DNA from: a virus
Length of the DNA stretch: 64,000 nucleotides
Reading direction: 5' to 3' (one strand)
Virus record (IMG/VR): IMGVR_UViG_3300042898_001439
Coordinates: 1 to 64,000 of that record
This document shows, piece after piece, positions 3,652 to 28,350 of the stretch. The notes under the pieces were generated by a model that was not told where the DNA came from, made no database searches, and was given only the letters and a program-made list of their open reading frames with translations. Positions within the stretch are counted from its first letter, which is position 1, and each line of letters starts with the position of its first letter. Made by a program: the position numbers and the translations under genes.

Positions 3652-4062
3652 CTACAAGAAAAGAATAGTTAAAGCCCCAATACCAATACCAACAAGAGTA
3701 CCACTAATAAAGGATTTCTTCACTTTCCCCTGAATAATAGTTTTTTCTTCATTACAAATGGAGATAATTTTATCTTTCTCGGTAATGATTAATTCCAAGT
3801 TATTGATCTTAAGATCCTTGGTTTGAATAATTTGGTCTTGAATAGTGACCTGAGACTTTAATTTTGTTAGAATATCGGACAATATCCTGTTTTCTTTACG
3901 AACAAGATCTCCTTCTTCTAAATCAACAACAACGAGTTTAGCCATTTCTACCGGGAGGCAGATGATGGTGTCTTTAGTTGTTGTTATAGCGGTTTGAGAA
4001 ATACTCGGTAAGCTCATTACTAGAAAGCTTACTAATAGAATCAATTCTTTTTTTGTAATCAT
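3652..4062 (-). CDS. spanin-like protein (signal peptide, coiled coil, C-terminal TM)
   Basis: MITKKELILLVSFLVMSLPSIS|Q signal, heptad region, C-terminal FISGTLVGIGIGALTILFL; overlaps the upstream Rz-like gene. Confidence 0.55.
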   Translation of the reverse strand: MITKKELILLVSFLVMSLPSISQTAITTTKDTIICLPVEMAKLVVVDLEEGDLVRKENRILSDILTKLKSQVTIQDQIIQTKDLKINNLELIITEKDKIISICNEEKTIIQGKVKKSFISGTLVGIGIGALTILFL

Positions 4063-4306
4063 TTTTGATTTTTTGTAATTGTTTTTCATCTGCGTTGATC
4101 TCTCTTCCTAGAGAGTCAACCTGTAAAACTAGCACATCTGTAAAGATATCTATAGAATCATTGGCTAGTCTTAGACTATCCACTCTTTGCTCTGAAAGCT
4201 CCTTGAGCTTTTCTAATTCATTCATGGTTTTGCGTCCTTCTCTCAAAAGGTATAGCTGGCCTACAATGATTACAGCAAAAATCAGCAAGATGATTCTTTT
4301 AAGCAT
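3974..4306 (-). CDS. i-spanin (Rz)-like protein
   Basis: N-terminal TM (IILLIFAVIIVGQLYLL) followed by a long coiled coil. Confidence 0.55.
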   Translation of the reverse strand: MLKRIILLIFAVIIVGQLYLLREGRKTMNELEKLKELSEQRVDSLRLANDSIDIFTDVLVLQVDSLGREINADEKQLQKIKNDYKKRIDSISKLSSNELTEYFSNRYNNN

Positions 4307-4595
4307 TTTTTATGGGTTTAACTTTTTTTTGTTCGTCTCTATACAATACAAGATCCGGAAGCACCAAACTAGCTTCTCGTGTTTTTTTGTTATAGAGGTG
4401 ATCCTCAATACGTAAGAATCTTGTCTCAAGATTGTCAATACGGACTTTGTCTTGAGCACTTTGGTTTAGTAGAAGCTTTATATCACTCTTCATCTCTTGC
4501 ATGTCTTGATACAGCATCATAGAGACAAAAGATAGTAAAGCTGGAGTAATCCAACTTTTAACTTCTTTTAAGATGTTAGAACTATTCTGTTCCAT
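4299..4595 (-). CDS. small membrane protein, holin/antiholin-like
   Basis: Single TM (WITPALLSFVSMML) plus coiled coil; first gene of the cassette. Confidence 0.45.
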   Translation of the reverse strand: MEQNSSNILKEVKSWITPALLSFVSMMLYQDMQEMKSDIKLLLNQSAQDKVRIDNLETRFLRIEDHLYNKKTREASLVLPDLVLYRDEQKKVKPIKNA

Positions 4596-7627: not shown

Positions 7628-8317
7628 ATGTCATTTTCAACTAAAGGTATTGATACCACCCCTAAAAAAGAGATCGGCCCTGATAAGAGCCTTGGTCTTG
7701 GTAACCACACTGTTCGCGTATACGGAATTGAGCTACGTTCAATGCCTTATAACGAAGAGCAAATGGAACTCGTACTTACTCTTGTAGGTAAGTCTAATAA
7801 TCCAAACTTCGAGGGATGGTCAATTGATATGGATAACCCTAATAAGGGAAATTTTCCTGGTCCAATGTCACGTGTTGCAACTAGTCCGTTTAAGTTTGAG
7901 TCTAAAACTCTTACTGATGGTACTCGTATTGACCGTGATGCTCAAATTATGAAAACTATTGCTCACTTATCTGATGAGCTTGGTGTACGTAATGATGTTG
8001 ACGAGGTAGACGCTGCTACTCTTCAAGAGTATGTACAAGCAGTATCTCATATTTTCCGTTCAGCAAAATCTAAATTGAACGTTCTTATTGGAGGTTCTAA
8101 GTACTTGAACAAAGAAGGTAAACTTCGTACTAACTACTCTTTTCCTTATTTGAAGAAAGGACGTGCTTTTCAAAACGCTGAGGCTGAAGAAAACATTGTT
8201 CCAGCATATGAGGAAACGGTTCATCTATATGTTCCAGAGAAAGTCAAGAGTGCTCTTGTTCAAGAATCACAAGTTTCATCAGCTCCTGTTTCACAGGATG
8301 ATGATCTTGATTGGTAA
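7628..8317 (+). CDS. putative single-stranded DNA-binding protein
   Basis: Beta-rich N-terminus, acidic-aromatic tail DDDLDW, position after Sak4. Confidence 0.6.
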   Translation: MSFSTKGIDTTPKKEIGPDKSLGLGNHTVRVYGIELRSMPYNEEQMELVLTLVGKSNNPNFEGWSIDMDNPNKGNFPGPMSRVATSPFKFESKTLTDGTRIDRDAQIMKTIAHLSDELGVRNDVDEVDAATLQEYVQAVSHIFRSAKSKLNVLIGGSKYLNKEGKLRTNYSFPYLKKGRAFQNAEAEENIVPAYEETVHLYVPEKVKSALVQESQVSSAPVSQDDDLDW

Positions 8318-19395: not shown

Positions 19396-19436
19396 AAAAA
19401 AGAAGAGAGGGTTAATAGCCCTCTCTTTTTATTTTT
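19396..19436. terminator. bidirectional terminator at the convergence of the two modules
   Basis: A-tract, AAGAGAGGGTT-AAT-AGCCCTCTCTT, T-tract. Confidence 0.85.
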
Positions 19437-20455: not shown

Positions 20456-21070
20456 TTACTTTACCCATCCGTAGTACTTCAGGGTTTTTTCTTTACGATC
20501 TTCTAGACCATGAGTACCTCCATTGATTCTCTTTGTAAGAGCAAGAATAGTGTCGTTATTTACACCTTTATCACAGATATCCCACAACTTATTACGATCA
20601 AAGAAGAAGATAGCAGATTCAAATGCATACTCAGTAGCAACCAGATCAGGATTAGTCATGATTTCTGGCTTCTTCAAGTATTCAGCAAATGCTTGGTAGT
20701 TAGATTTACCAGTCAATTGCAGAGCACCACGTCCACGAAACTTATATCCATCACCAGATGCTTCATCACCATTACCCATACGAGATGCATACACACGGTT
20801 TGCAATCTTTTCTGGCTTACGCTCATACTGAGCAGCTAGAGCTTCTGTAGGGAAGTACTTTTTAAAAATACCAAGCAATCCTTTAGCACTATAGTTCAAG
20901 TTCTCAGAGAAAGCTTTAAACCCTCCGGTCTCGTGAGCTGTTTGTGCAAAGAAATGTGCAGCACGTTCAGGTGTAAACTTGTAGTAAGTCATTCCTGCTT
21001 TTAGAGTGCCCGGACCAAATGCTCCATCCGCCGTAACACCCGCTTTGGTTTGTAAACTCTTTAGACTCAT
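20456..21070 (-). CDS. endolysin, glycoside hydrolase family 19, with a short PG-binding N-terminus
   Basis: FFAQTAHETGGF, ENLNYS, FRGRGALQLTGKSNY and TKRINGG; N-terminal LQ..AGVTADGAFGPGT. Confidence 0.92.
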   Translation of the reverse strand: MSLKSLQTKAGVTADGAFGPGTLKAGMTYYKFTPERAAHFFAQTAHETGGFKAFSENLNYSAKGLLGIFKKYFPTEALAAQYERKPEKIANRVYASRMGNGDEASGDGYKFRGRGALQLTGKSNYQAFAEYLKKPEIMTNPDLVATEYAFESAIFFFDRNKLWDICDKGVNNDTILALTKRINGGTHGLEDRKEKTLKYYGWVK

Positions 21071-21330
21071 TCTTCTTCTTTTTTAGCACCGAAAATCTTT
21101 CCAGCTTCAGCAATACCGAAAGCTCCCAGTGTGATTATTACAAACGAATTAAAAATTGTATCAGAAATAATGAGCTCATTGCCCATAATACCTGTTACCA
21201 CATCGGCAATAGCTGTAATACTCATTACAGTGAATGACAAGAAACCAACAATAGTCTTCTCGTTCCACTCATTATTGTCCTTAAAAATATCCCAAAAAGC
21301 CATAAACTTATTTTTTAATTGATTAAACAT
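21067..21330 (-). CDS. holin-like two-TM protein (start may be 21303)
   Basis: Two TM helices, charged tail, overlaps the endolysin start. Confidence 0.65.
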   Translation of the reverse strand: MFNQLKNKFMAFWDIFKDNNEWNEKTIVGFLSFTVMSITAIADVVTGIMGNELIISDTIFNSFVIITLGAFGIAEAGKIFGAKKEEE

Positions 21331-21353
21331 GACTGTTGGTTTTCATTGTTGGT

Positions 21354-21374
21354 TCTATATAAAATATACGAAAT
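21354..21374 (-). promoter_or_regulatory. putative late promoter motif
   Basis: Minus strand ATTTCGTATATTTTATATAGA upstream of holin/endolysin. Confidence 0.55.
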
Positions 21375-21797
21375 TTAGTCCAGAGCATCAACTATTGCCT
21401 TCTTAACAGCAACAGAAAATTCTGTTCTTTCAAACTCAAGATTCTCATCCTGAAGCTGCATAAGGGTTGCAGCAACATTTGTATTAGCTTTTCCTACTCC
21501 GTGATAAACCTTAGAGCCGATTGCAATGTCTACTTCTACAATGGTTTTCTTTTGCTTGAATTCAAACGGACCTAGACGTATACCTTGAGTTGGAGCTTTG
21601 ATGTCGGTGATTGTCACATATACCGGACTTGCACCCTCTGAAGACTGATCACACAAGGGATTTCCTTGTTGTAGAAGAATGTCTTCAGTCATTTGCTTGA
21701 GACCAAAAGTGAACTTCTGGTTATCGATACCAGCTAGATTTGCATTAGATGTCACAGTAGCAACATAAAAGCACATTGTAATAATTGAATTGATCAT
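21375..21797 (-). CDS. small alpha/beta protein, possibly CsgG/LptE-like fold
   Basis: FTFGLKQMTEDILL helix, beta strands and terminal helix FSVAVKKAIVDAL mirror the layout of the CsgG-like gene. Confidence 0.45.
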   Translation of the reverse strand: MINSIITMCFYVATVTSNANLAGIDNQKFTFGLKQMTEDILLQQGNPLCDQSSEGASPVYVTITDIKAPTQGIRLGPFEFKQKKTIVEVDIAIGSKVYHGVGKANTNVAATLMQLQDENLEFERTEFSVAVKKAIVDALD

Positions 21798-22975
21798 TGG
21801 AGTTTACCTGAGTTAATTGATTGAGTTGCATTATGTATTCCTGTACCCATTATGTAGAATTGATTTTGATTTTCAATCGTACGTGTTTGGGCGGGAGAAT
21901 ATGTATTATAATAATTAGCGTTAGGATTAGCTTCAATAGTAATTTTTTCTGCCTGAGTGAAGATGTACTTGTTATGTAGTGCATTTGTTTTTAAAAGCGT
22001 ATAACAAAAGTTTATATCCTCCCAATCAAAAGTTGAGGAGTTATTACAGTCACAAGTGTAAAAGTCCCAGTCCTGTAACGGACCTAAATTACCTTTTATA
22101 AACATCATGTAAATAAGACTGAAGTCAGTAATAGGGTGAAACTTCTGAGAGGTGTTGATTGTAACCTTGTACTGCTTATTGGTAGGATTAGAAACTACTA
22201 CCTGACCAGTTGCGTTTGTGTTCTGAGTTGATATTGTAGACCAGCTTCCTTGATTTGAAGAGGATGTAAATCTAAAAGCAGTACCGGCTGCATAACTTGT
22301 AGTCGTGATATAATTCACACCCAGCCATGCAGCACCGCTTGAAATGCCCATCTGCTCTTGATTAGAACCATCAGCAGTAAATGCGCGCATCACTACGTAA
22401 AAGACTGTAGGTTGAGTTTTTACAAAGTATAGATCCCATATCACATTTACTCCTGATTGACTGTACTGGCAGTTCCCCTCATACCTAACCCTGAACACGT
22501 CCCCCCAAGTTCCATCAGTATAGGTTTCAGTTGAAACCTTAGACATATTGTTGTCTGAGGATCCGTTATCAACCGAGGTTATGTGAATAGTAGGAACGTT
22601 TGGGTTGGTTGCATTACCCTGGTAGCCTGAACTGCTTGTAGTTCCAAATCCAAACCAAGAGTTAGAATTAACGTGACCTTGTGTATACGTTGTTGTACCT
22701 ATAGTAGGAGTGAAGCCGGATGGAAATGTTATAGCAGCAGAAGCTTCATCCGCATTAGCACTACTAAAAATTATAGTACTCCCGGCTCCCCTATTAGCTG
22801 GTATATAAGCTGTCTGAGATTGAACGGTGCCACTTAAACCTCCTGCAGTGTAATGCTCAACCGTAATAGGTATACCACTAACGTCCTGAGTTCCAATTGG
22901 AGTCAGGGTGATTGTCTGCCCTATCAGAGATAGAGGTAGAATTAACAGGAGTATTATGTTTAATTTAGAAATCAT
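21794..22975 (-). CDS. exported beta-rich protein with a dockerin-like Ca-binding loop
   Basis: Signal ...PLSLIG|Q; Ser/Thr-rich beta domain; CDCNNSSTFDWED loop. Confidence 0.6.
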   Translation of the reverse strand: MISKLNIILLLILPLSLIGQTITLTPIGTQDVSGIPITVEHYTAGGLSGTVQSQTAYIPANRGAGSTIIFSSANADEASAAITFPSGFTPTIGTTTYTQGHVNSNSWFGFGTTSSSGYQGNATNPNVPTIHITSVDNGSSDNNMSKVSTETYTDGTWGDVFRVRYEGNCQYSQSGVNVIWDLYFVKTQPTVFYVVMRAFTADGSNQEQMGISSGAAWLGVNYITTTSYAAGTAFRFTSSSNQGSWSTISTQNTNATGQVVVSNPTNKQYKVTINTSQKFHPITDFSLIYMMFIKGNLGPLQDWDFYTCDCNNSSTFDWEDINFCYTLLKTNALHNKYIFTQAEKITIEANPNANYYNTYSPAQTRTIENQNQFYIMGTGIHNATQSINSGKLQ

Positions 22976-23789
22976 AGTTACATCCTATTGAAAGTATATA
23001 GGGAGTTGCCTTACGAAACCCAATAGTTTTGTCTGAAGGAGAGTATGTGTAGCAGCTTCTAAGTTTACTACCAAACATAAATTTCTCAGTTAATTTATAT
23101 TTTAATGAAGCTCCGTAGTATGCATTAAGATTAAAATCATCCCAGTACCAGATGTCTAGTGCACCCTCAAAGTCGTCTAAATTAAAATAGTGAGTTCTTA
23201 CAGACGATAGTAAGAATAATTCGGGTCCTAATACAAATCTCTTATATTCAAATTCTTTCATTGCTATGAGCATCCCACTGTATTTTGTATAGGATGCCGC
23301 AGGATAAAATTGCTCAAATAAATAAAAATCATCGTGAGTGTTATCTCTAATAAATAAGGTATATCCAAGTTTGGTATTATTCTTAAACTCGTAAATTTGA
23401 TTAAAATAAGGGCTTACCACTACAGCCGAATGGTCAGCAAACGCTGATACTGTTACTCCGTATGTGGTTGTTCTATCTATATTCTTAAGAGTCTTAGCTC
23501 TAGTATGACTGTATCCTACTTTTGTGTACTTAAAAAAAGGAGTATTGGATGCAAATATTCCATTTGTTACATTCTCTTTACCCCATTCATAGGTTAGGTT
23601 GTAACTCAATATCCTCATATCACCTAGGTACCCAACTGATACGTTAGAGCTACTCATAACATCATTATCAAAATCAATATACTGTATTGAAGTAACATCA
23701 GATATAGTCTGAGTATTCCCAGAAGTTTGAGAATACGCCTGTATTGATACCGACAGTATAAAAATCAAGCTTAAAATAAACTTTCTCAT
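22965..23789 (-). CDS. predicted outer-membrane beta-barrel protein
   Basis: Signal ...QAYS|Q; alternating amphipathic strands; C-terminal YILSIGCNYDF beta-signal. Confidence 0.7.
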   Translation of the reverse strand: MRKFILSLIFILSVSIQAYSQTSGNTQTISDVTSIQYIDFDNDVMSSSNVSVGYLGDMRILSYNLTYEWGKENVTNGIFASNTPFFKYTKVGYSHTRAKTLKNIDRTTTYGVTVSAFADHSAVVVSPYFNQIYEFKNNTKLGYTLFIRDNTHDDFYLFEQFYPAASYTKYSGMLIAMKEFEYKRFVLGPELFLLSSVRTHYFNLDDFEGALDIWYWDDFNLNAYYGASLKYKLTEKFMFGSKLRSCYTYSPSDKTIGFRKATPYILSIGCNYDF

Positions 23790-25240
23790 AGTAACATCTT
23801 TGTTCCGGTTGATAACTGAAAGTTAAGAATATCTGCGTTGTATTGGTATGCTCCTGAGAATGAGATACTCCACTTAAACTTATCGGTAAGTTTAAAGTCA
23901 ACGCTTGCTAGGGGTACAATAAGAAACCCGGATTTGTACCATTGTCCTTCGTAGTAAAAGATATAAGGTGAGTATACACCTAGAGCCATTATGTTAGCAG
24001 ATAAAGTCTTACCCCCTTTAAAACTAGTGAATGTTCCTCCTACTACAGATAAGTTTTGAAACTCAGATTTACCTATCTGACCTAGAGTAAAATTAGCTCC
24101 GCCCATAAAAGTAAACTTCCAAAGTTTTTGTGCACTTAGCAGAGTTACTGTGTTAAACCAGTCAGATTTAAAATCAGTCATAAAAGAATTGGAACCCACC
24201 GCCATGAAATCTTTTTTCTTATAGGACCCATACAAAGTGAGATTGCTTATATTTTCTCCTGTAGTATAGTTTAGGTTGACACCTTTAATAAAGTTTTGCT
24301 TGGTGTTGACGTGAGTAACTGACGTATTGAAACGGAAGTTATCATTACGCTTACTGATGTCGTTACCATTACGGATAACAACCATGTCCCCTGAACCAAT
24401 CAGAGAACCCCTACCAATCTTTTCTTGCTTTTGTTTTGGTTTATTACCTCCACCACCTCCACCACCGGAGTCTCCAGAACTTTCTGATTCTCCACCCGAT
24501 GCTGTAGTAGTATTTTCACCGGTACCAGACCCACCGGATTCAGATGTAGAGCCACCTTGTGCAGTACCACCACTTCCGGTGCTACCGCCACCTTCTACTC
24601 CTCCTTGTGGTTGTCCTCCACCGGAACCACCAGACCCTGAGTTTCCTCCAGAACTGCCACCAGAAGAAGAACCACCAGATCCAGAGCCACCAGAGCCTGA
24701 AGAACCTGAAGAACCGCCTGTTGGAGGTTTGGTTCCAGATCCGCTTGAACTGCCAGTATTGCCACCACCGCTAGTAGCACCATTTTCACCAGTATTATCA
24801 CCTGAGTTTTCACCACCTGAACCGCCTGTATTACCTGTTGATATTGAACCTGAACTTACGCTACCCCCTCCGAGACTGCCCGCGATGGAAGTGCTAATAG
24901 AGACAATACCGCTAACACTATTTGCTGTGTTTGTACCGATGTTTGCGTTACTATTATTAGCGTTAGAAGAACCATTACCTGCACAAGGGTTGCTACCTGG
25001 AGGAAACTGAGTATTAATTTGAGCAATCCAATTTTCATAAGCTCCTGATTGAAGTTGAGCTGCTGTAAAAGTTTGGTATTGCCCAGCATAAAACATCACC
25101 ACTGTCCCAGATGTCTGAGACAGGATGACTGACTGTAGCACTCCCGTACAAGGATCCGTATAATTGTAAGTAAATGTTTGTGCTTGCAACCCTATACATC
25201 CCAGCAGAAATAATAATAATATTTTGAATTTACCATTCAT
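23786..25240 (-). CDS. predicted outer-membrane beta-barrel with N-terminal domain and long Gly/Ser linker
   Basis: Signal ...GLQA|Q; N-terminal domain with two Cys; about 150 aa G/S/T-rich linker; amphipathic strands to the C-terminus. Confidence 0.7.
   Translation of the reverse strand: MNGKFKILLLFLLGCIGLQAQTFTYNYTDPCTGVLQSVILSQTSGTVVMFYAGQYQTFTAAQLQSGAYENWIAQINTQFPPGSNPCAGNGSSNANNSNANIGTNTANSVSGIVSISTSIAGSLGGGSVSSGSISTGNTGGSGGENSGDNTGENGATSGGGNTGSSSGSGTKPPTGGSSGSSGSGGSGSGGSSSGGSSGGNSGSGGSGGGQPQGGVEGGGSTGSGGTAQGGSTSESGGSGTGENTTTASGGESESSGDSGGGGGGGNKPKQKQEKIGRGSLIGSGDMVVIRNGNDISKRNDNFRFNTSVTHVNTKQNFIKGVNLNYTTGENISNLTLYGSYKKKDFMAVGSNSFMTDFKSDWFNTVTLLSAQKLWKFTFMGGANFTLGQIGKSEFQNLSVVGGTFTSFKGGKTLSANIMALGVYSPYIFYYEGQWYKSGFLIVPLASVDFKLTDKFKWSISFSGAYQYNADILNFQLSTGTKMLL
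24445..24880 (-). repeat. Gly/Ser/Thr low-complexity coding region
   Basis: GGSSGSSGSGGSGSGGSSSGG... encoded by ccacc/agaacc-rich DNA. Confidence 0.8.
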
Positions 25241-25976
25241 ATTGGTCCATGCGTTTCATAAGGTTTACCGTGGCAACCTCTAACGCACGTTGTGTAGACA
25301 CACCCACCGTTGACTGATCAAAGCCCATAGTGGGATTCTTAAAGAAGCCCTCACCAACCTGAGTAGAAGTTCCTTGACCAGATGCAACAATATATTGAGA
25401 GTTATCTACATTAACCATCTTAATTTGAATACCGATGATGGTAGTATTAGTTTTCTGAAGTTTTCCTTTATCATAAGTTTCTCCATAAGACGTAGAAAAT
25501 TCATAGATCTCAGCGTAGACAATGTACTTAGGTAGAACTACCGAGCCTACGTTAAGCTTGGTTCTACCATCACCCATGTCATTGAGATCTTTCTCCCATA
25601 CATCAAGCATTTGATTAACGATAGCTTCTTTTTCTTCCGCATAGAGAAATCTCTGAGTTACCTCAAAGTTCTCTATAATACGGTTAGATACACCCATACC
25701 AACTCTTTTGTCTCTAAGCTCCGGAAACATCTCCCAGAGTTCTTTATTAACGTTAAGAGTGGCTATTTGAATTACTTTTTTCTCACCAGTGAATACAGGA
25801 AATGTATTTAGAGGTTGAGCTTTTTCAAATTCAGCTTGGTATTGTGTAGTAGCAATAGAAGAAGAGCAAGATGTAGCTAAACCTCCTATAGTGAGAAGGC
25901 CAACCGTGATAATCACAATTCCAAGAATACTTGCAGCTATTGCAATGTATTCTTCTTTTTTAGTTTGATGTTCCAT
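25230..25976 (-). CDS. CsgG/HfaB/FlgT-like lipoprotein
   Basis: Hydrophobic signal ending LATS|C; GMGVSNRIIENF..TQRF, KYIVYAEIYEFS and IGIQIKMVNVDNSQY fit the CsgG-family layout. Confidence 0.7.
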   Translation of the reverse strand: MEHQTKKEEYIAIAASILGIVIITVGLLTIGGLATSCSSSIATTQYQAEFEKAQPLNTFPVFTGEKKVIQIATLNVNKELWEMFPELRDKRVGMGVSNRIIENFEVTQRFLYAEEKEAIVNQMLDVWEKDLNDMGDGRTKLNVGSVVLPKYIVYAEIYEFSTSYGETYDKGKLQKTNTTIIGIQIKMVNVDNSQYIVASGQGTSTQVGEGFFKNPTMGFDQSTVGVSTQRALEVATVNLMKRMDQYEW

Positions 25977-26352
25977 CTTTAGCTGCTTTATCTTTTTTAA
26001 GTCTTGCAATACGCTCAGCAGTAGTTTCTTTCTTTTCTTCTACTGGTGCAGCAGGTTGTGCAGCAGGTACTTCACGTACAGTTTCTTTAATTACTGTAGT
26101 ATGTGACGATGCAGCTTGTTGTTGCTCAGGAACATTGATAGTAATAGCAGGACCAGATACGTTAACGCTCTGATTGTTGGACTGCTCTACAGGAGCTACT
26201 TGTTCAGTAGCGGCTCCTCCCTCTTCTTCTATACCTAGAATGGTATTGATCTGAGTAGTAGCCCAGATACCTACTCCGGTAACGGCTGTTCCTAGTACTC
26301 CTAGAATTGTTTTCTTTAAACCGGACATTCCTCCTTCTTGATCTTCGCTCAT
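25960..26352 (-). CDS. membrane-anchored low-complexity protein
   Basis: N-terminal TM (ILGVLGTAVTGVGIWA) and Gln/Pro/Glu-rich tail. Confidence 0.65.
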   Translation of the reverse strand: MSEDQEGGMSGLKKTILGVLGTAVTGVGIWATTQINTILGIEEEGGAATEQVAPVEQSNNQSVNVSGPAITINVPEQQQAASSHTTVIKETVREVPAAQPAAPVEEKKETTAERIARLKKDKAAKDGTSN

Positions 26353-26358
26353 GGTTTC

Positions 26359-28287
26359 TTAGTATTTAATAATTTTGTAAAACTTCTCTCTATCGTTAGT
26401 TGTCAGCTTTATGATGTAAATACCATTAGGAAGATCACCGAACCAAATACCTTGAGTTTGGAAACCTCTTTCAGTAATTTTACTAGAAACTGACTTAACA
26501 ATCTGACCTTGAGAGTTAAGAACCAGACCGCTAAAGTTTGTAAAGTCTTCAATGTAAAAGTCTACAACTAACCAGTGGTTGGTAAGATCAGTTACAGGAT
26601 TAGGATAAGTAATAAATCCAGTAAGAAGAGCAAGAGTCCGCTCATCCATTTCTGCTCTACCGTTAATTACAGAGCCGTCATTAGGGGAAGGACGGATAGA
26701 CATATCGTAAGCATTCTCATCACCTGCAGCTTTATTAAAGATTGCAAGAGGAGAAGTTCTCCATCCAAGAATAGACTTAACTGCAAATCTGAAAGTAAAT
26801 ACTTGAGATGGCCCTTGAAGAAGAGCAGGATTCATCTTATCTTCGTGACCAGCCCAGAATACACCACCATCTTTAAACGTCATAAATGATGTCCACTTTG
26901 AAGCAGAATCTCCCATATTCAGAGACACAAACTCAAACACCGCAGTATCATACTGGATCCCCATCTGCAGAGCTCCAACCTTATTACCAAACGTGTACAC
27001 TGTCACAGGTACATCAATGTAGTTATCAGTTGTTACAATAAGTTTAGGAATTCTAAACTCAATTGAGTCTGGCTTATTAGAGAGGTATACTGCCGGATCA
27101 AGAATGTAATCTGTACCAGATCCAGGGTTTACCATCTTAGCAAGAATAGTTGCAGGGTTGTTGTATCCTGAAGTTGTGGCATCACCTACTACATAGATGT
27201 ACGGTCTAAGACTATCCATACTATTAACAATAGTATCAATTGAATATACTCTAGGTACGTTTGTCCAGTTAGGAGCAGCTACGGCGGCATTTGCAGTTGC
27301 CCACTCAGAAGGCCAAAGAACTGAAACGTTGTTTACTCCCGTAAAGAGTTGATCCCAACCTGTCTGACCTAGAGCAAGTCTGTTAAATACAGCAAATGCA
27401 TCAGACACTGTTACAGACTGGCTCTCGTTAATATCACCCTCGTAGTACTCAATACCACCTAAAGTATCTTGAGAAGATACATGGTTAGCCAATTTGTAAG
27501 CATCTACAATAGTTAGAGCCCCGCCATCAGACATAGAGTCTGTTTGTGCAGAGATCTTCATATGCCAGTAGTTTGTATCAAGCGGATGAGTAAACTCTAC
27601 TAAACCTGTAGCATTAGTTGAGTCAGTAGTAATTGATTGCCAAGTAGCAAGAGGTGTTGATTTAAGTCTTTTCTTAGCAGAAAACCAAACACCTTGAGCA
27701 GGTGAACTATCAGCGTTTCTAACCTTTACAGGAAACGTCATCGGAGTCATTTGGAAAGCACCACCGTAGCTGTAGAGCTCAAGGTTTACATCAGTACCGT
27801 TACCAATTGTTGCCAGATTAGTGTAATTACTAGATCCTGAAATTGCCATAGAGGTAGCTACACCATTATATGCACCAGAATGAAAAAGACGAAGCTTAAA
27901 CATAGCTCCGTCTGCCCAGTCAAAGTTTGGCGTAGAACCAGTATATGACGCTACTACGTTAATGTATCCAGCATTTGTAAAATAAGAACCGTACTTATCG
28001 GCGATGGGTTGTGCTGTTGGTCCCCAAAACATGACAGCGTTTGAAAACTTAGCATTGTCATAGAAGAGTCGGAACTGTACAGCCTTTACAGAAGTAGCGG
28101 TAGGGTTGGCAAAGTGAACGTATACATCTGTGTACGTTGCCGGATAGTTGTCCAGTGTAAATAGAGTATCTACAAGGATATAAGGGTTGTTACTTGCGGG
28201 TGCTACAAGTATTTCATTAGCACCGTTTTGAGCAAGAAGACTTAAAGAAATAAGAGAAGTTGAAAGACTCCACCAGAACTTTTTCAT
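26359..28287 (-). CDS. secreted cohesin-dockerin-cohesin-like protein with T9SS C-terminal sorting domain
   Basis: Signal ...SLLA|Q; cohesin-like VKAVQFRLFYD and VGALQMGIQYD; dockerin-like GDINESQSVTVSDA; CTD YPNP...NSQGQIV...LPNGIYIIKL...KIIK. Confidence 0.75.
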   Translation of the reverse strand: MKKFWWSLSTSLISLSLLAQNGANEILVAPASNNPYILVDTLFTLDNYPATYTDVYVHFANPTATSVKAVQFRLFYDNAKFSNAVMFWGPTAQPIADKYGSYFTNAGYINVVASYTGSTPNFDWADGAMFKLRLFHSGAYNGVATSMAISGSSNYTNLATIGNGTDVNLELYSYGGAFQMTPMTFPVKVRNADSSPAQGVWFSAKKRLKSTPLATWQSITTDSTNATGLVEFTHPLDTNYWHMKISAQTDSMSDGGALTIVDAYKLANHVSSQDTLGGIEYYEGDINESQSVTVSDAFAVFNRLALGQTGWDQLFTGVNNVSVLWPSEWATANAAVAAPNWTNVPRVYSIDTIVNSMDSLRPYIYVVGDATTSGYNNPATILAKMVNPGSGTDYILDPAVYLSNKPDSIEFRIPKLIVTTDNYIDVPVTVYTFGNKVGALQMGIQYDTAVFEFVSLNMGDSASKWTSFMTFKDGGVFWAGHEDKMNPALLQGPSQVFTFRFAVKSILGWRTSPLAIFNKAAGDENAYDMSIRPSPNDGSVINGRAEMDERTLALLTGFITYPNPVTDLTNHWLVVDFYIEDFTNFSGLVLNSQGQIVKSVSSKITERGFQTQGIWFGDLPNGIYIIKLTTNDREKFYKIIKY

Positions 28288-28330
28288 GTGCAAATAGCAT
28301 TATAAGTTTCATAAAAGTTGTTGGTTTATC

Positions 28331-28350
28331 TCACATATAAGATACAAAAT
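28331..28350 (-). promoter_or_regulatory. putative late promoter for the exported-protein cluster
   Basis: Minus strand ATTTTGTATCTTATATGTGA. Confidence 0.55.

What the first reader, a model, noticed from the sequence alone, without database searches (positions are those of the whole stretch)
21375..28350. Phage-encoded seven-gene cell-envelope / surface-assembly system
Seen: one promoter-led operon of tightly packed genes: a T9SS-CTD protein with cohesin- and dockerin-like modules, a membrane-anchored spacer, a CsgG-like lipoprotein, two predicted OM beta-barrels, an exported protein with a dockerin-like loop and a small CsgG-like-fold protein. Four have Sec signals with Gln at +1 (A|Q, A|Q, S|Q, G|Q). 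Established: Gln+1 is the Bacteroidota Q-rule, T9SS CTDs route cargo to the surface, and CsgG forms OM secretion rings. Such signals are not expected on proteins assembled into virions in the cytoplasm. Inference: the phage builds a surface structure on the infected cell for receptor masking or superinfection exclusion, aggregation with new hosts, grazer protection or vesicle/release functions. No curlin subunit is present, so it is not simply curli.
Basis: partly seen in the sequence, partly recalled or inferred. Interest (0 to 1): 0.85.

Follow-up and report, generated by a model that had tools for sequence, protein, structure and literature searches.

The report
Phage envelope module beside lysis genes
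A lake phage of Flavobacterium-type bacteria carries a block of exported proteins, shared by many related phages and kept next to their cell-bursting genes, that probably mounts swappable binding proteins on the infected cell's outer envelope; nobody has tested what it does.

Summary
The seven genes are real and tightly packed on the minus strand (21375-28293) of a crAss-like lake phage contig.

What the tools confirm:
- g1 has a Cohesin domain and a type-A T9SS sorting domain, both above Pfam/NCBIfam cut-offs.
- g3 has a CsgG-like fold (Z 13.4) and links to Pfam CsgG through intermediate sequences.
- g4 is a small domain, a disordered Gly/Ser stalk and an outer-membrane barrel.
- g7 is a probable mini-paralogue of g3.
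- The Gln at +1 is invariant in relatives.

What is new:
- The order g1-g2-g3-g4-(variable)-g7 is kept in all 65 related viral contigs examined and in cultured Flavobacterium phage immuto. It is essentially absent from bacterial genomes.
- g5 is an occasional extra.
- g6 belongs to a class with a conserved beta-sandwich plus dockerin-like C-terminal frame. In relatives its heads are C-type lectin, ConA-like or PA14.
- Holin-like and endolysin genes lie beside or inside the block in at least 42 of 65 loci, in several arrangements.

Best reading (about 0.5): a lysis-co-regulated, cohesin-dockerin envelope display module. Its purpose is untested.

This scan found the same module before on other phage genomes. 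I found no published description.

The parts
28320..28344 (-). Two-box motif (TATCTTATATG ... AACCAAC) in the 266-nt gap upstream of g1; possible late promoter or regulatory site
   Evidence: The only other copy in the window lies upstream of the holin-like gene. The close relative L005 has the same motif upstream of its g1. The pattern was derived post hoc.
26359..28293 (-). g1: exported scaffold. Signal peptide (A|Q), N-terminal beta-sandwich region, transthyretin-like plus dockerin-like middle, Cohesin domain (residues 422-508), type-A T9SS C-terminal sorting domain (563-642). The likely true start is the ATG at 28287.
   Evidence: It is split into two signal-peptide proteins (gp014 and gp015) in phage immuto.
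25960..26352 (-). g2: small bitopic membrane protein. Acidic N-terminus, Gly/Thr-rich TM helix, low-complexity Pro/Ala/Gln tail with short conserved motifs.
   Evidence: There is a weak sub-threshold DUF2570 hit.
25230..26009 (-). g3: CsgG-superfamily protein with a lipoprotein signal (LATSC). The likely start is the ATG at 25976. It overlaps the end of g2.
   Evidence: AF2 model. Foldseek CsgG E 1e-7. VIA Z 13.4 to CsgG, then CT253, LPHT ring, PelC and LptE. Profile hits to bacterial proteins that pass Pfam CsgG. Family of at least 5892 clusters.
23786..25240 (-). g4: signal peptide (A|Q), 65-residue N-domain with two invariant Cys, about 190 residues of disordered Gly/Ser stalk, and a C-terminal outer-membrane beta-barrel of 12-14 strands.
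   Evidence: Alignment. AF2 model. Foldseek and VIA.
22965..23789 (-). g5: accessory exported protein (S|Q), probably an outer-membrane barrel. Present in only a few lineages.
21794..22975 (-). g6: exported protein (G|Q) with an unassigned N-terminal head and a conserved C-terminal beta-sandwich plus degenerate dockerin-like loop. It is the window's member of the exchangeable-head class.
   Evidence: Relatives carry Lectin_C (19 of 38), Laminin_G_3 (8), PA14 (5) and sub-threshold Dockerin_1 (11).
21375..21797 (-). g7: small conserved protein, a probable paralogue of the C-terminal half of g3. It has no canonical signal peptide in this clade.
21348..21366 (-). Second copy of the two-box motif, in the 44-nt gap between g7 and the holin-like gene.
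21067..21330 (-). Holin-like protein with two TM helices. Its end overlaps the endolysin start.
   Evidence: Homologues sit between g2 and g3, or flank the block, in many loci. The immuto homologue lies next to an endolysin and an annotated holin.
20456..21070 (-). GH19-type endolysin.
   Evidence: Pfam Glyco_hydro_19 and phrog_181 E 1e-63.

Best explanation
This is a phage-specific envelope module made in the infected Bacteroidota cell and co-regulated with the lysis genes.

Shown:
- Six conserved components carry export or membrane signals.
- g1 has a cohesin domain and a type-A T9SS sorting signal.
- g3 is a member of the CsgG superfamily.
- g4 is an outer-membrane barrel on a long disordered stalk.
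- The g6 class has a conserved beta-sandwich plus dockerin-like frame under exchangeable heads, which in relatives are mostly sugar-binding.

Inferred:
- g1 is taken to the cell surface by the host type IX secretion system and serves as a scaffold.
- g6-class proteins dock on it through cohesin-dockerin contacts.
- g2 (inner membrane), g3/g7 (periplasmic face of the outer membrane) and g4 (outer membrane) anchor the assembly or help it across.

Most likely purpose, with low certainty: the heads bind host-type surface glycans around the time of burst. That would either mask receptors on the dying cell and its debris, so that progeny and rival phages are not lost there, or hold neighbouring host cells close.
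For: - Strict synteny of g1-g2-g3-g4-(variable)-g7 in 65 of 65 IMG/VR loci, with g3 identity down to 36%, on contigs of about 4 to 373 kb. The same order occurs in the cultured myovirus immuto.
- Phage-restricted. Only 7 hits in one genome per 185,579 species, all on MAG contigs; the four most complete of them carry other cassette or lysis-gene homologues. No PHROG family.
- Domain and fold evidence.
- The g6 class shares its C-terminal frame across different heads: Lectin_C, Laminin_G_3, PA14, GEVED, Ig_7. The middle of g1 carries the same sandwich-plus-dockerin-like unit.
- Gln +1 is invariant, which fits export in Bacteroidota.
- Co-regulation with lysis. The block is packed against the holin-like and endolysin genes, the upstream motif is shared, and at least 42 of 65 loci have lysis-gene homologues beside or inside it.
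- RNA-library contigs from two studies cover parts of most of the genes.
Against: - No binding, localisation or timing data exist.
- Dockerin hits are all below Pfam cut-offs, and the g6 loop in this window is degenerate.
- g6-class proteins have only a Sec signal. No type-B T9SS domain was found, so their route across the outer membrane is unknown.
- g3 loses its lipobox in 5 of 17 relatives, and the tip of its long hairpin is polar, so a CsgG-type pore is not evident.
- g7 lacks a clear signal peptide here.
- Both AF2 models are of modest confidence (pLDDT 67.5 and 55.8).
- Lysis genes placed inside the block could mean a direct role in lysis rather than display.
- No similarity links g6 to any other gene of this contig, so nothing ties its head to the phage's own receptor-binding proteins.
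Confidence: 0.5

Rival explanations
1. The module is part of the lysis machinery. It could breach or permeabilise the outer membrane, with g3, g4 and g2 as a Bacteroidota-specific analogue of spanins or an 'outer-membrane holin'. Or it could set lysis timing, with g2 as an antiholin-like partner of the two-TM protein.
For: - Holin-like genes sit between g2 and g3 in many loci. Where that family is missing, another two-TM family fills the same slot.
- An endolysin and a second lysin-like gene (phrog_33083) are adjacent.
- g2 and g3 overlap, as i- and o-spanin genes do, and g3 is the only credible lipoprotein in the 78.7-kb contig.
- g2 gives a weak hit to DUF2570.
- A lysis-control role has been proposed in print for phage CsgG pores (PMC9004378).
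Against: - A separate trio with spanin-like architecture exists at 3652-4595.
- g3 is a 248-residue folded domain and lacks the lipobox in 5 of 17 relatives.
- The g2 tail is low-complexity, not coiled coil.
- A T9SS-sorted cohesin protein and exchangeable lectin heads have no obvious use in membrane rupture.
- In immuto the block lies about 27 kb from the lysis genes.
Confidence: 0.17
2. The module is a private export route. The CsgG-like g3, helped by g7 and the g4 barrel, lets Sec-exported phage proteins (lectin-type proteins, and in relatives a non-specific nuclease) leave the periplasm before or at lysis as soluble factors. No stable surface structure is formed.
For: - CsgG is the best structural match.
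- The cargo-like proteins have only Sec signals.
- An exported Endonuclease_NS gene sits in the block in 16 loci and next to it in immuto.
Against: - No pore evidence exists. The hairpin tip is polar, and the lipobox is not conserved.
- Bacterial relatives of the g3 domain are fused to kinases and caspases, which points to a general periplasmic module.
- This reading does not explain the conserved cohesin scaffold with a T9SS signal.
Confidence: 0.12
3. The module is a superinfection-exclusion device that acts in the envelope rather than by glycan display. It could block incoming DNA, jam or occupy the host T9SS and gliding machinery that flavobacterial phages use as receptors, or act like the TraT, Imm or Sp proteins.
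For: - All parts are envelope-located.
- g1 uses the T9SS.
- The g3 fold also resembles the surface-exclusion lipoprotein TraT, but weakly (Z 8.2).
- In immuto the block lies among replication-region genes.
Against: - Here and in most loci the block lies in the late, lysis region, which suits exclusion poorly.
- The exchangeable sugar-binding heads are not explained.
- The TraT match is in the range where unrelated folds also score.
Confidence: 0.1
4. The block is a captured bacterial operon, an assembly chimera, or a set of virion proteins with chance signal-like N-termini.
For: JGI names some g3 relatives 'CsgG'. The contig comes from a metagenome.
Against: - The same block lies in the same phage context in 65 viral contigs and a cultured phage.
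- The stretch is found in at least 18 lake metagenome runs from 2016 to 2024.
- There are almost no bacterial copies.
- The signal peptides and Gln +1 are conserved.
Confidence: 0.03

Closest known systems
Cohesin-dockerin assemblies (cellulosome scaffoldins and non-cellulosomal cohesin/dockerin modules)
   Same: A scaffold with a cohesin domain above the Pfam cut-off. Partner proteins carry a small Ca-loop-type dockerin-like unit under different functional heads. The scaffold is anchored to the cell surface.
   Different: It is encoded by phages. It would be anchored by a type-A T9SS signal, not sortase or SLH. The heads are lectin-type binders, not enzymes. Dockerin matches are sub-threshold, and binding is untested. 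It always comes with CsgG-like, barrel and small membrane proteins.
CsgG/CsgF clusters of pelagimyophages and OM43 phage Melnitz (PMC7029224, PMC9004378)
   Same: A phage-encoded CsgG-superfamily protein without curlin subunits, widespread in aquatic phages and of unknown function. The published proposals are 'sibling capture', uptake of molecules, or control of lysis.
   Different: Those are true CsgG plus CsgF, close to proteobacterial genes. Here g3 gives no direct Pfam CsgG hit and there is no CsgF. The partners are different (T9SS cohesin scaffold, stalked barrel, exchangeable-head proteins), the hosts are Bacteroidota, and the block is physically tied to the holin-like and endolysin genes.
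Curli secretion channel CsgG (type VIII secretion)
   Same: The fold of g3 (VIA Z 13.4, rmsd 3.5, 168 residues aligned). A lipoprotein signal is present in this window.
   Different: There are no CsgA, B, E or F partners. The lipobox is not conserved in the family. Amphipathic membrane hairpins are not evident. Oligomer state is unknown.
Phage envelope proteins that act at or after infection (T5 Llp receptor-blocking lipoprotein, lambda Bor and Lom, spanins Rz/Rz1)
   Same: Exported phage proteins placed in the host envelope. Some are encoded beside lysis genes. Receptor masking and outer-membrane action are established roles for such proteins (my own knowledge, not tested here).
   Different: Those are one- or two-protein devices with no sequence or fold relation to this block. 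This one is a conserved set of six or more components with modular heads.
PelB-PelC outer-membrane polysaccharide export gate
   Same: A lipoprotein with a CsgG-related fold (g3 to PelC, Z 10.6-10.8) is paired with a beta-barrel (g4 to the PelB barrel, Z 13.6).
   Different: The barrel match is generic. No polysaccharide synthesis genes are nearby. CsgG matches g3 better than PelC does.

Membership tests
CsgG family (curli channel, Pfam PF03783) | Sequence match to the CsgG profile | tested here: inconclusive
   No direct Pfam hit for g3 at E<0.1. The g3 profile hits bacterial proteins at E 1e-17 to 1e-19, and those pass PF03783 over the same region (32-46 bits, cut-off 20.8). This supports superfamily kinship, not family membership.
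CsgG family (curli channel, Pfam PF03783) | CsgG fold | tested here: met
   Foldseek E 1e-7, TM about 0.5. VIA Z 13.4, rmsd 3.5, 168 of 206 residues aligned, top of 48,161 chains. The model has pLDDT 67.5.
CsgG family (curli channel, Pfam PF03783) | Outer-membrane lipoprotein signal | tested here: inconclusive
   Lipobox LATSC in the window. 12 of 17 aligned relatives keep a lipobox Cys; 5 have a plain A|Q signal peptide.
CsgG family (curli channel, Pfam PF03783) | Nonameric ring with a 36-strand membrane barrel | not testable with these tools
   No multimer prediction was available. By eye, the tip of the long hairpin (residues about 170-190) is polar rather than alternately hydrophobic.
CsgG family (curli channel, Pfam PF03783) | Curli partners CsgA/B/E/F in the locus | tested here: not met
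   No such Pfam or NCBIfam hits in g1-g7.
Cohesin-dockerin system | Cohesin domain | tested here: met
   PF00963 at 36.4 bits (cut-off 24.1) in g1 and in 25 of 27 relatives. The profile also hits solved cohesins weakly.
Cohesin-dockerin system | Dockerin with a Ca-binding loop-helix repeat on partner proteins | tested here: inconclusive
   Dockerin_1 is found only below the cut-off: 13 of 27 g1 relatives (best E 2e-4) and 11 of 38 g6-class proteins (best 1.3e-3). The DxNxDGxIxxxD-type loop is clear in relatives and degenerate in the window's g6.
Cohesin-dockerin system | Physical cohesin-dockerin binding | not testable with these tools
   This needs multimer modelling or pull-downs.
Type-A T9SS cargo | Sec signal peptide plus C-terminal sorting domain | tested here: met
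   TIGR04183 at 30.5 bits (cut-off 23) and PF18962 at 28.5 (27), found in 27 of 27 relatives. The signal peptide has an invariant Gln at +1.
Type-A T9SS cargo | Host possesses a T9SS and secretes the protein | not testable with these tools
   The host of this contig is unknown. The cultured relative infects Flavobacterium sp. LMO8, a genus known to have a T9SS (my own knowledge).
Two-component spanin (Rz/Rz1 type) | i-spanin: type-II membrane protein with a periplasmic coiled coil | tested here: not met
   g2 has the N-terminal TM helix, but its periplasmic part is a Pro/Ala/Gln-rich low-complexity tail.
Two-component spanin (Rz/Rz1 type) | o-spanin: small outer-membrane lipoprotein | tested here: not met
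   g3 is a folded CsgG-like domain of about 248 residues. The lipobox is absent in 5 of 17 relatives.
Two-component spanin (Rz/Rz1 type) | Overlapping gene pair within a lysis cassette | tested here: met
   g2 and g3 overlap by 17-50 nt and lie beside the holin-like and endolysin genes. A better spanin-like pair exists at 3652-4306.
Type Va autotransporter (for g4) | C-terminal 12-strand barrel preceded directly by a pore-spanning helix; Autotransporter profile | tested here: inconclusive
   The barrel matches NalP (Z 14.6), but that is tied with the 14-strand porins CymA and OmpG (15.6, 15.1). There is no Pfam hit. About 150 disordered residues separate the conserved helix-like segment from the barrel.
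PorP/SprF anchor with type-B T9SS cargo (for g4, g5 and the g6 class) | PorP/SprF profile on the barrel; type-B sorting domain on the neighbour | tested here: inconclusive
   No NCBIfam or Pfam hits of these families at E<0.05-0.1. Distant versions cannot be excluded.

The most novel reading that the evidence does not exclude
Phages of Flavobacterium-type bacteria build their own modular organelle on the infected cell. It would be a T9SS-delivered cohesin scaffold, held by a CsgG-like ring and a stalked barrel, that presents exchangeable lectins. Timed with lysis, it would control where progeny go, either by capturing neighbouring hosts or by blinding receptors on debris. This would be a previously unknown class of phage-encoded, multi-protein cell-surface machinery, common in lakes.
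Probability: 0.3. Interest if true: 0.88.

Novelty: new variant of a known kind. Interest (0 to 1): 0.72.

Why it matters
**Scale.** The block is one of the most conserved unexplained gene sets in freshwater Bacteroidota phages. Its CsgG-like protein alone forms at least 5,892 protein clusters at 90% identity. It occurs in crAss-like phages, in a cultured myovirus and on contigs up to about 370 kb. This phage is seen in at least 18 lake metagenome runs from 2016 to 2024.

**If the display reading is right.** Phages would be using the host's type IX secretion system and cohesin-dockerin docking to remodel the surface of the cell they are about to burst. The interchangeable sugar-binding heads would then record host glycan diversity. 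That would bear on how phages avoid losing progeny to debris, find new hosts in dilute water, or compete with other phages.

**If the lysis rival is right.** It would reveal how outer membranes of Bacteroidota are handled at lysis, which is poorly known.

**Testability.** Both readings can be tested with a cultured pair: Flavobacterium phage immuto on Flavobacterium sp. LMO8.

Tried and rejected
**Searches that gave nothing**
- PHROGs gave no family for g1-g7 or the holin-like protein.
- NCBIfam gave only the CTD of g1.
- PADLOC was not run.
- A megablast of the block against 50,697 phage records found nothing.
- Protein-level hits were limited to the four immuto records.
- The g3 profile found no solved structure by sequence. 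The g7 profile found only noise.
- The ESM Atlas held no models for g5 or g7. Its feature hits are leads only.
- Literature searches for phage cohesin, T9SS or lysis links found no description of this block.

**Ideas tested without support**
- I considered the barrels as PorP/SprF anchors for type-B T9SS cargo. No profile hits supported this.
- I tested whether the g6 head resembles any other gene of the same contig, such as a receptor-binding protein. There was no similarity at E<1. The contig is only 66% complete.
- Bacteroidota (TTTG..TAnnTTTG) and sigma-70 promoter scans were at or below chance.
- I scanned the whole contig for canonical o-spanin or u-spanin lipoproteins. Apart from g3, only spurious antisense ORFs came up.

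**RNA**
- RNA-library contigs show that pieces of the block are present in two metatranscriptome studies. They cannot give timing, strand or operon structure, and DNA carry-over is possible.

**Observations without follow-up**
- The Gly/Thr-rich TM helix of g2 looks like a signal-anchor-release (SAR) domain. This is only an impression.
- AF2 may have placed the conserved g4 helix inside the barrel, as in an autotransporter. That segment has pLDDT below 50, so I do not rely on it.
Full report
**Setting.** The window is the first 64 kb of a 78.7-kb IMG/VR viral contig, 66% complete by CheckV. Another follow-up in this scan called it crAss-like. Plus-strand early genes run to about 19.3 kb. From 64 kb down to 19.4 kb the genes are on the minus strand: very large proteins, then the block in question, then a holin-like gene, an endolysin and a PhoH-like gene.

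**Observation.** Seven minus-strand ORFs fill 21375-28293, with gaps or overlaps of -50 to +6 nt. I call them g1 to g7.
- g1, 644 residues: Pfam Cohesin (residues 422-508, 36.4 bits, cut-off 24.1) and Por_Secre_tail (563-642, 28.5 bits, cut-off 27). NCBIfam calls a type-A T9SS sorting domain (30.5 bits, cut-off 23).
- g2, 130 residues: an acidic N-terminus, one Gly/Thr-rich TM helix and a low-complexity tail.
- g3: a lipobox (LATSC).
- g4, g5 and g6: signal peptides ending A|Q, S|Q and G|Q.
- The Gln after the signal peptide is invariant in the family alignments of g1 (27 sequences), g4 (25) and the g6 class (38). That fits the known preference of Bacteroidota for Gln at +1.
- g7 differs. Distant homologues have a signal peptide followed by an invariant Cys, but in this clade the protein starts only 5-8 residues before that Cys. 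Its export here is uncertain.
- Likely true starts are the ATG at 28287 for g1 and the ATG at 25976 for g3, judged from the alignments.

**Folds.**
- g3 was folded with 17 homologues (pLDDT 67.5). The best match is CsgG: Foldseek E 1e-7, TM about 0.5; VIA Z 13.4, rmsd 3.5, 168 residues aligned. Next come other outer-membrane-associated proteins of related fold: CT253, the LPHT ring, PelC, LptE, PqiC and, weakly, TraT.
- g3 gives no direct Pfam CsgG hit. A profile search of 1.84 billion representatives found only 348 relatives. Among them are bacterial proteins in which this domain is fused to Ser/Thr kinases or caspases, or is duplicated. Several pass Pfam CsgG over the same region. So g3 belongs to the CsgG superfamily. 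Those fusions also show the domain is a general periplasmic module and not necessarily a pore.
- g4 (pLDDT 55.8) has three parts: a confident 65-residue N-domain with two invariant Cys, about 190 disordered Gly/Ser-rich residues that vary in length between phages, and a C-terminal outer-membrane barrel. The barrel scores VIA Z about 15 to CymA and OmpG, 14.6 to NalP and 13.6 to the PelB barrel and PorV, so the match is generic.
- g7 aligns with the C-terminal half of g3 by profile-profile comparison (probability 80%, E 1e-5).
- For g5 I have only language-model leads to porin families, plus its signal peptide and C-terminal YDF.

**Conservation.**
- g3 homologues were found in 65 IMG/VR contigs of about 4 to 373 kb. 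Every locus that extends far enough keeps g1-g2-g3-g4-(variable)-g7 in that order, down to 26-36% identity.
- Flavobacterium phage immuto, a 160-kb myovirus, is the only cultured phage with hits. It has the same order, with g1 split into two signal-peptide proteins.
- The g3 family holds at least 5,892 clusters at 90% identity in metagenomes. JGI names some of them CsgG.
- In one genome for each of 185,579 species, only seven hits appeared. All are on MAG contigs, and the four most complete carry homologues of other cassette genes or of the lysis genes.
- The block is therefore phage-specific. It is neither a chimera nor a captured bacterial operon.
- This phage stretch is present in at least 18 lake metagenome runs from 2016 to 2024.

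**What varies.**
- g5 occurs in only a few lineages.
- The slot between g4 and g7 nearly always holds one or more exported proteins that share a C-terminal unit of about 160 residues. The unit is a beta-sandwich followed by a loop-helix of the DxNxDGxIxxxD type.
- Their N-terminal heads differ: Lectin_C in 19 of 38, Laminin_G_3 in 8, PA14 in 5, then GEVED and Ig_7. Dockerin_1 is detected below threshold in 11.
- The window's g6 is a member of this class, with an unassigned head and a degenerate loop.
- The middle of g1 carries a similar sandwich plus dockerin-like unit.
- Sixteen loci also hold an exported Endonuclease_NS nuclease in the slot. Immuto has a nuclease and a lectin gene just upstream of its g1 homologue.

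- In the window the block is followed, after 44 nt, by a two-TM holin-like gene whose end overlaps a GH19 endolysin.
- Homologues of these two genes lie within the fetched flanks in 42 of 65 loci, in several arrangements:
  - after g7;
  - before g1;
  - endolysin divergent upstream, with the holin-like gene between g2 and g3.
- Where that holin-like family is missing, the same g2-g3 slot holds another two-TM family.
- In immuto the holin-like homologue sits beside an endolysin and an annotated holin, about 27 kb from the block. So it is a lysis gene and not a dedicated part of the module.
- A two-box motif (TTATAT..AACCAAC) occurs exactly twice in 64 kb, upstream of g1 and upstream of the holin-like gene. 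I derived the pattern from these two sites, so the statistic is circular. Even so, it suggests shared regulation.
- Generic promoter scans were uninformative.
- Short contigs from RNA libraries of two studies cover parts of most genes. This is weak evidence of transcription and gives no timing.

**Interpretation.**
- The best-supported model is an envelope module with cohesin-dockerin logic. g1 would be taken to the surface by the host T9SS and serve as a scaffold. g6-class proteins would dock on it and present exchangeable, mostly sugar-binding heads. g2, g3/g7 and g4 would be the conserved inner-membrane, periplasmic and outer-membrane partners.
- Only the domains, folds, signals, synteny and lysis linkage are shown. 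Docking, localisation and purpose are inferred.
- How Sec-only head proteins would cross the outer membrane is open. Candidates are passage through g3/g4, co-transport with g1, or release at lysis.
- My preferred purpose is glycan binding around the time of burst, either to mask receptors on the dying cell and its debris or to hold neighbouring hosts. I hold this with low confidence.

**The main rival** is a direct role in lysis.
- For it: the position inside lysis cassettes, the overlapping g2-g3 pair, and the published speculation that phage CsgG pores regulate lysis (PMC9004378).
- Against it:
  - a separate trio with spanin-like architecture at 3652-4595;
  - the non-conserved lipobox of g3;
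  - the non-coiled tail of g2;
  - the lack of any obvious use for a T9SS cohesin scaffold and lectin heads in membrane rupture.
- Gene position next to lysis genes can also reflect regulation alone. Shiga-toxin genes in Stx phages are an example (my own knowledge).

**Comparison with the known.**
- The closest described cases are the CsgG/CsgF clusters of pelagimyophages and phage Melnitz, whose function is also unknown (PMC7029224, PMC9004378), and bacterial cohesin-dockerin display systems.
- This block differs from both in its partners, its hosts, its T9SS signal, its modular heads and its tie to lysis genes.
- I found no paper describing it.
- Earlier follow-ups in this scan reached a similar reading on other phage genomes. 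That is not independent evidence.

**Verdict.** I rate it a new variant of known kinds, with interest 0.72.

Noticed in passing
window 3652-4595, minus strand: Three small genes sit here. One is 98 aa with one TM helix and a coiled coil. One is 110 aa with an N-terminal TM helix and a coiled coil (i-spanin-like). One is 145 aa with a signal peptide, a coiled coil and a C-terminal TM helix (u-spanin-like). The last two overlap by 116 nt in different frames, like Rz/Rz1. No PHROG family matches. They are candidate spanins, about 16 kb from the holin-like and endolysin genes.
   Followed up: partly
window 21348-21366 and 28320-28344, minus strand: The shared two-box motif (GTATnTTTATATr ... AACCAAC) is found only at these two intergenic sites in 64 kb. 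Relatives have (G/C)ATATTTAT(T/A)A upstream of g1, often after a hairpin. It may be a late promoter.
   Followed up: partly
L040:7261-7902, L061:7323-7673 and 7685-7918, L024:5318-5668: A second family of two-TM proteins (116-214 aa, motif NRFYxMLQQMQxNRWRIT) and a 77-aa two-TM protein occupy the g2-g3 slot, or precede g1, where the holin-like family is absent. Some carry an acidic Cys-rich C-terminal extension.
   Followed up: partly
L027:9677-10261 and 15 other loci; immuto gp012 (L001:3936-4514): A DNA/RNA non-specific endonuclease (Endonuclease_NS) with a signal peptide is encoded inside or beside the module. It may be kept in the periplasm, away from phage DNA, until lysis.
   Followed up: partly
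P0194, P0195, P0213, P0226, P0236, P0220: Bacterial relatives of the g3 domain are fused to caspase-like Peptidase_C14 domains (as lipoproteins) or to Ser/Thr kinases through a TM helix and a Pro-rich linker, or are duplicated in tandem. These are CsgG-type domains used as periplasmic modules.
   Followed up: partly
L027:2424-3005, L031:4745-5326, L054:4680-5261: A GIY-YIG-type homing-endonuclease-like gene is inserted just upstream of g1 in some lineages. A 199-aa phrog_3000 / phrog_33083 (endolysin-like) gene lies between the endolysin and the module.
   Followed up: no
L027:10707-11153 and homologues directly after g7: In the distant clade, a conserved exported protein of about 150 aa (N-terminus ...IADVGDGWK...) follows g7. 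It has no Pfam, NCBIfam or PHROG hit and is absent from the window's clade.
   Followed up: no
window 21375-21797 (g7): In the crAss-like clade g7 begins 5-8 residues before the invariant Cys. In other clades that Cys follows a normal signal peptide. It is unclear how, or whether, g7 is exported here.
   Followed up: partly
window 19400-19430: A strong bidirectional terminator-like hairpin (14 pairs) lies at the junction of the plus-strand and minus-strand gene blocks, just beyond the PhoH-like gene.
   Followed up: no
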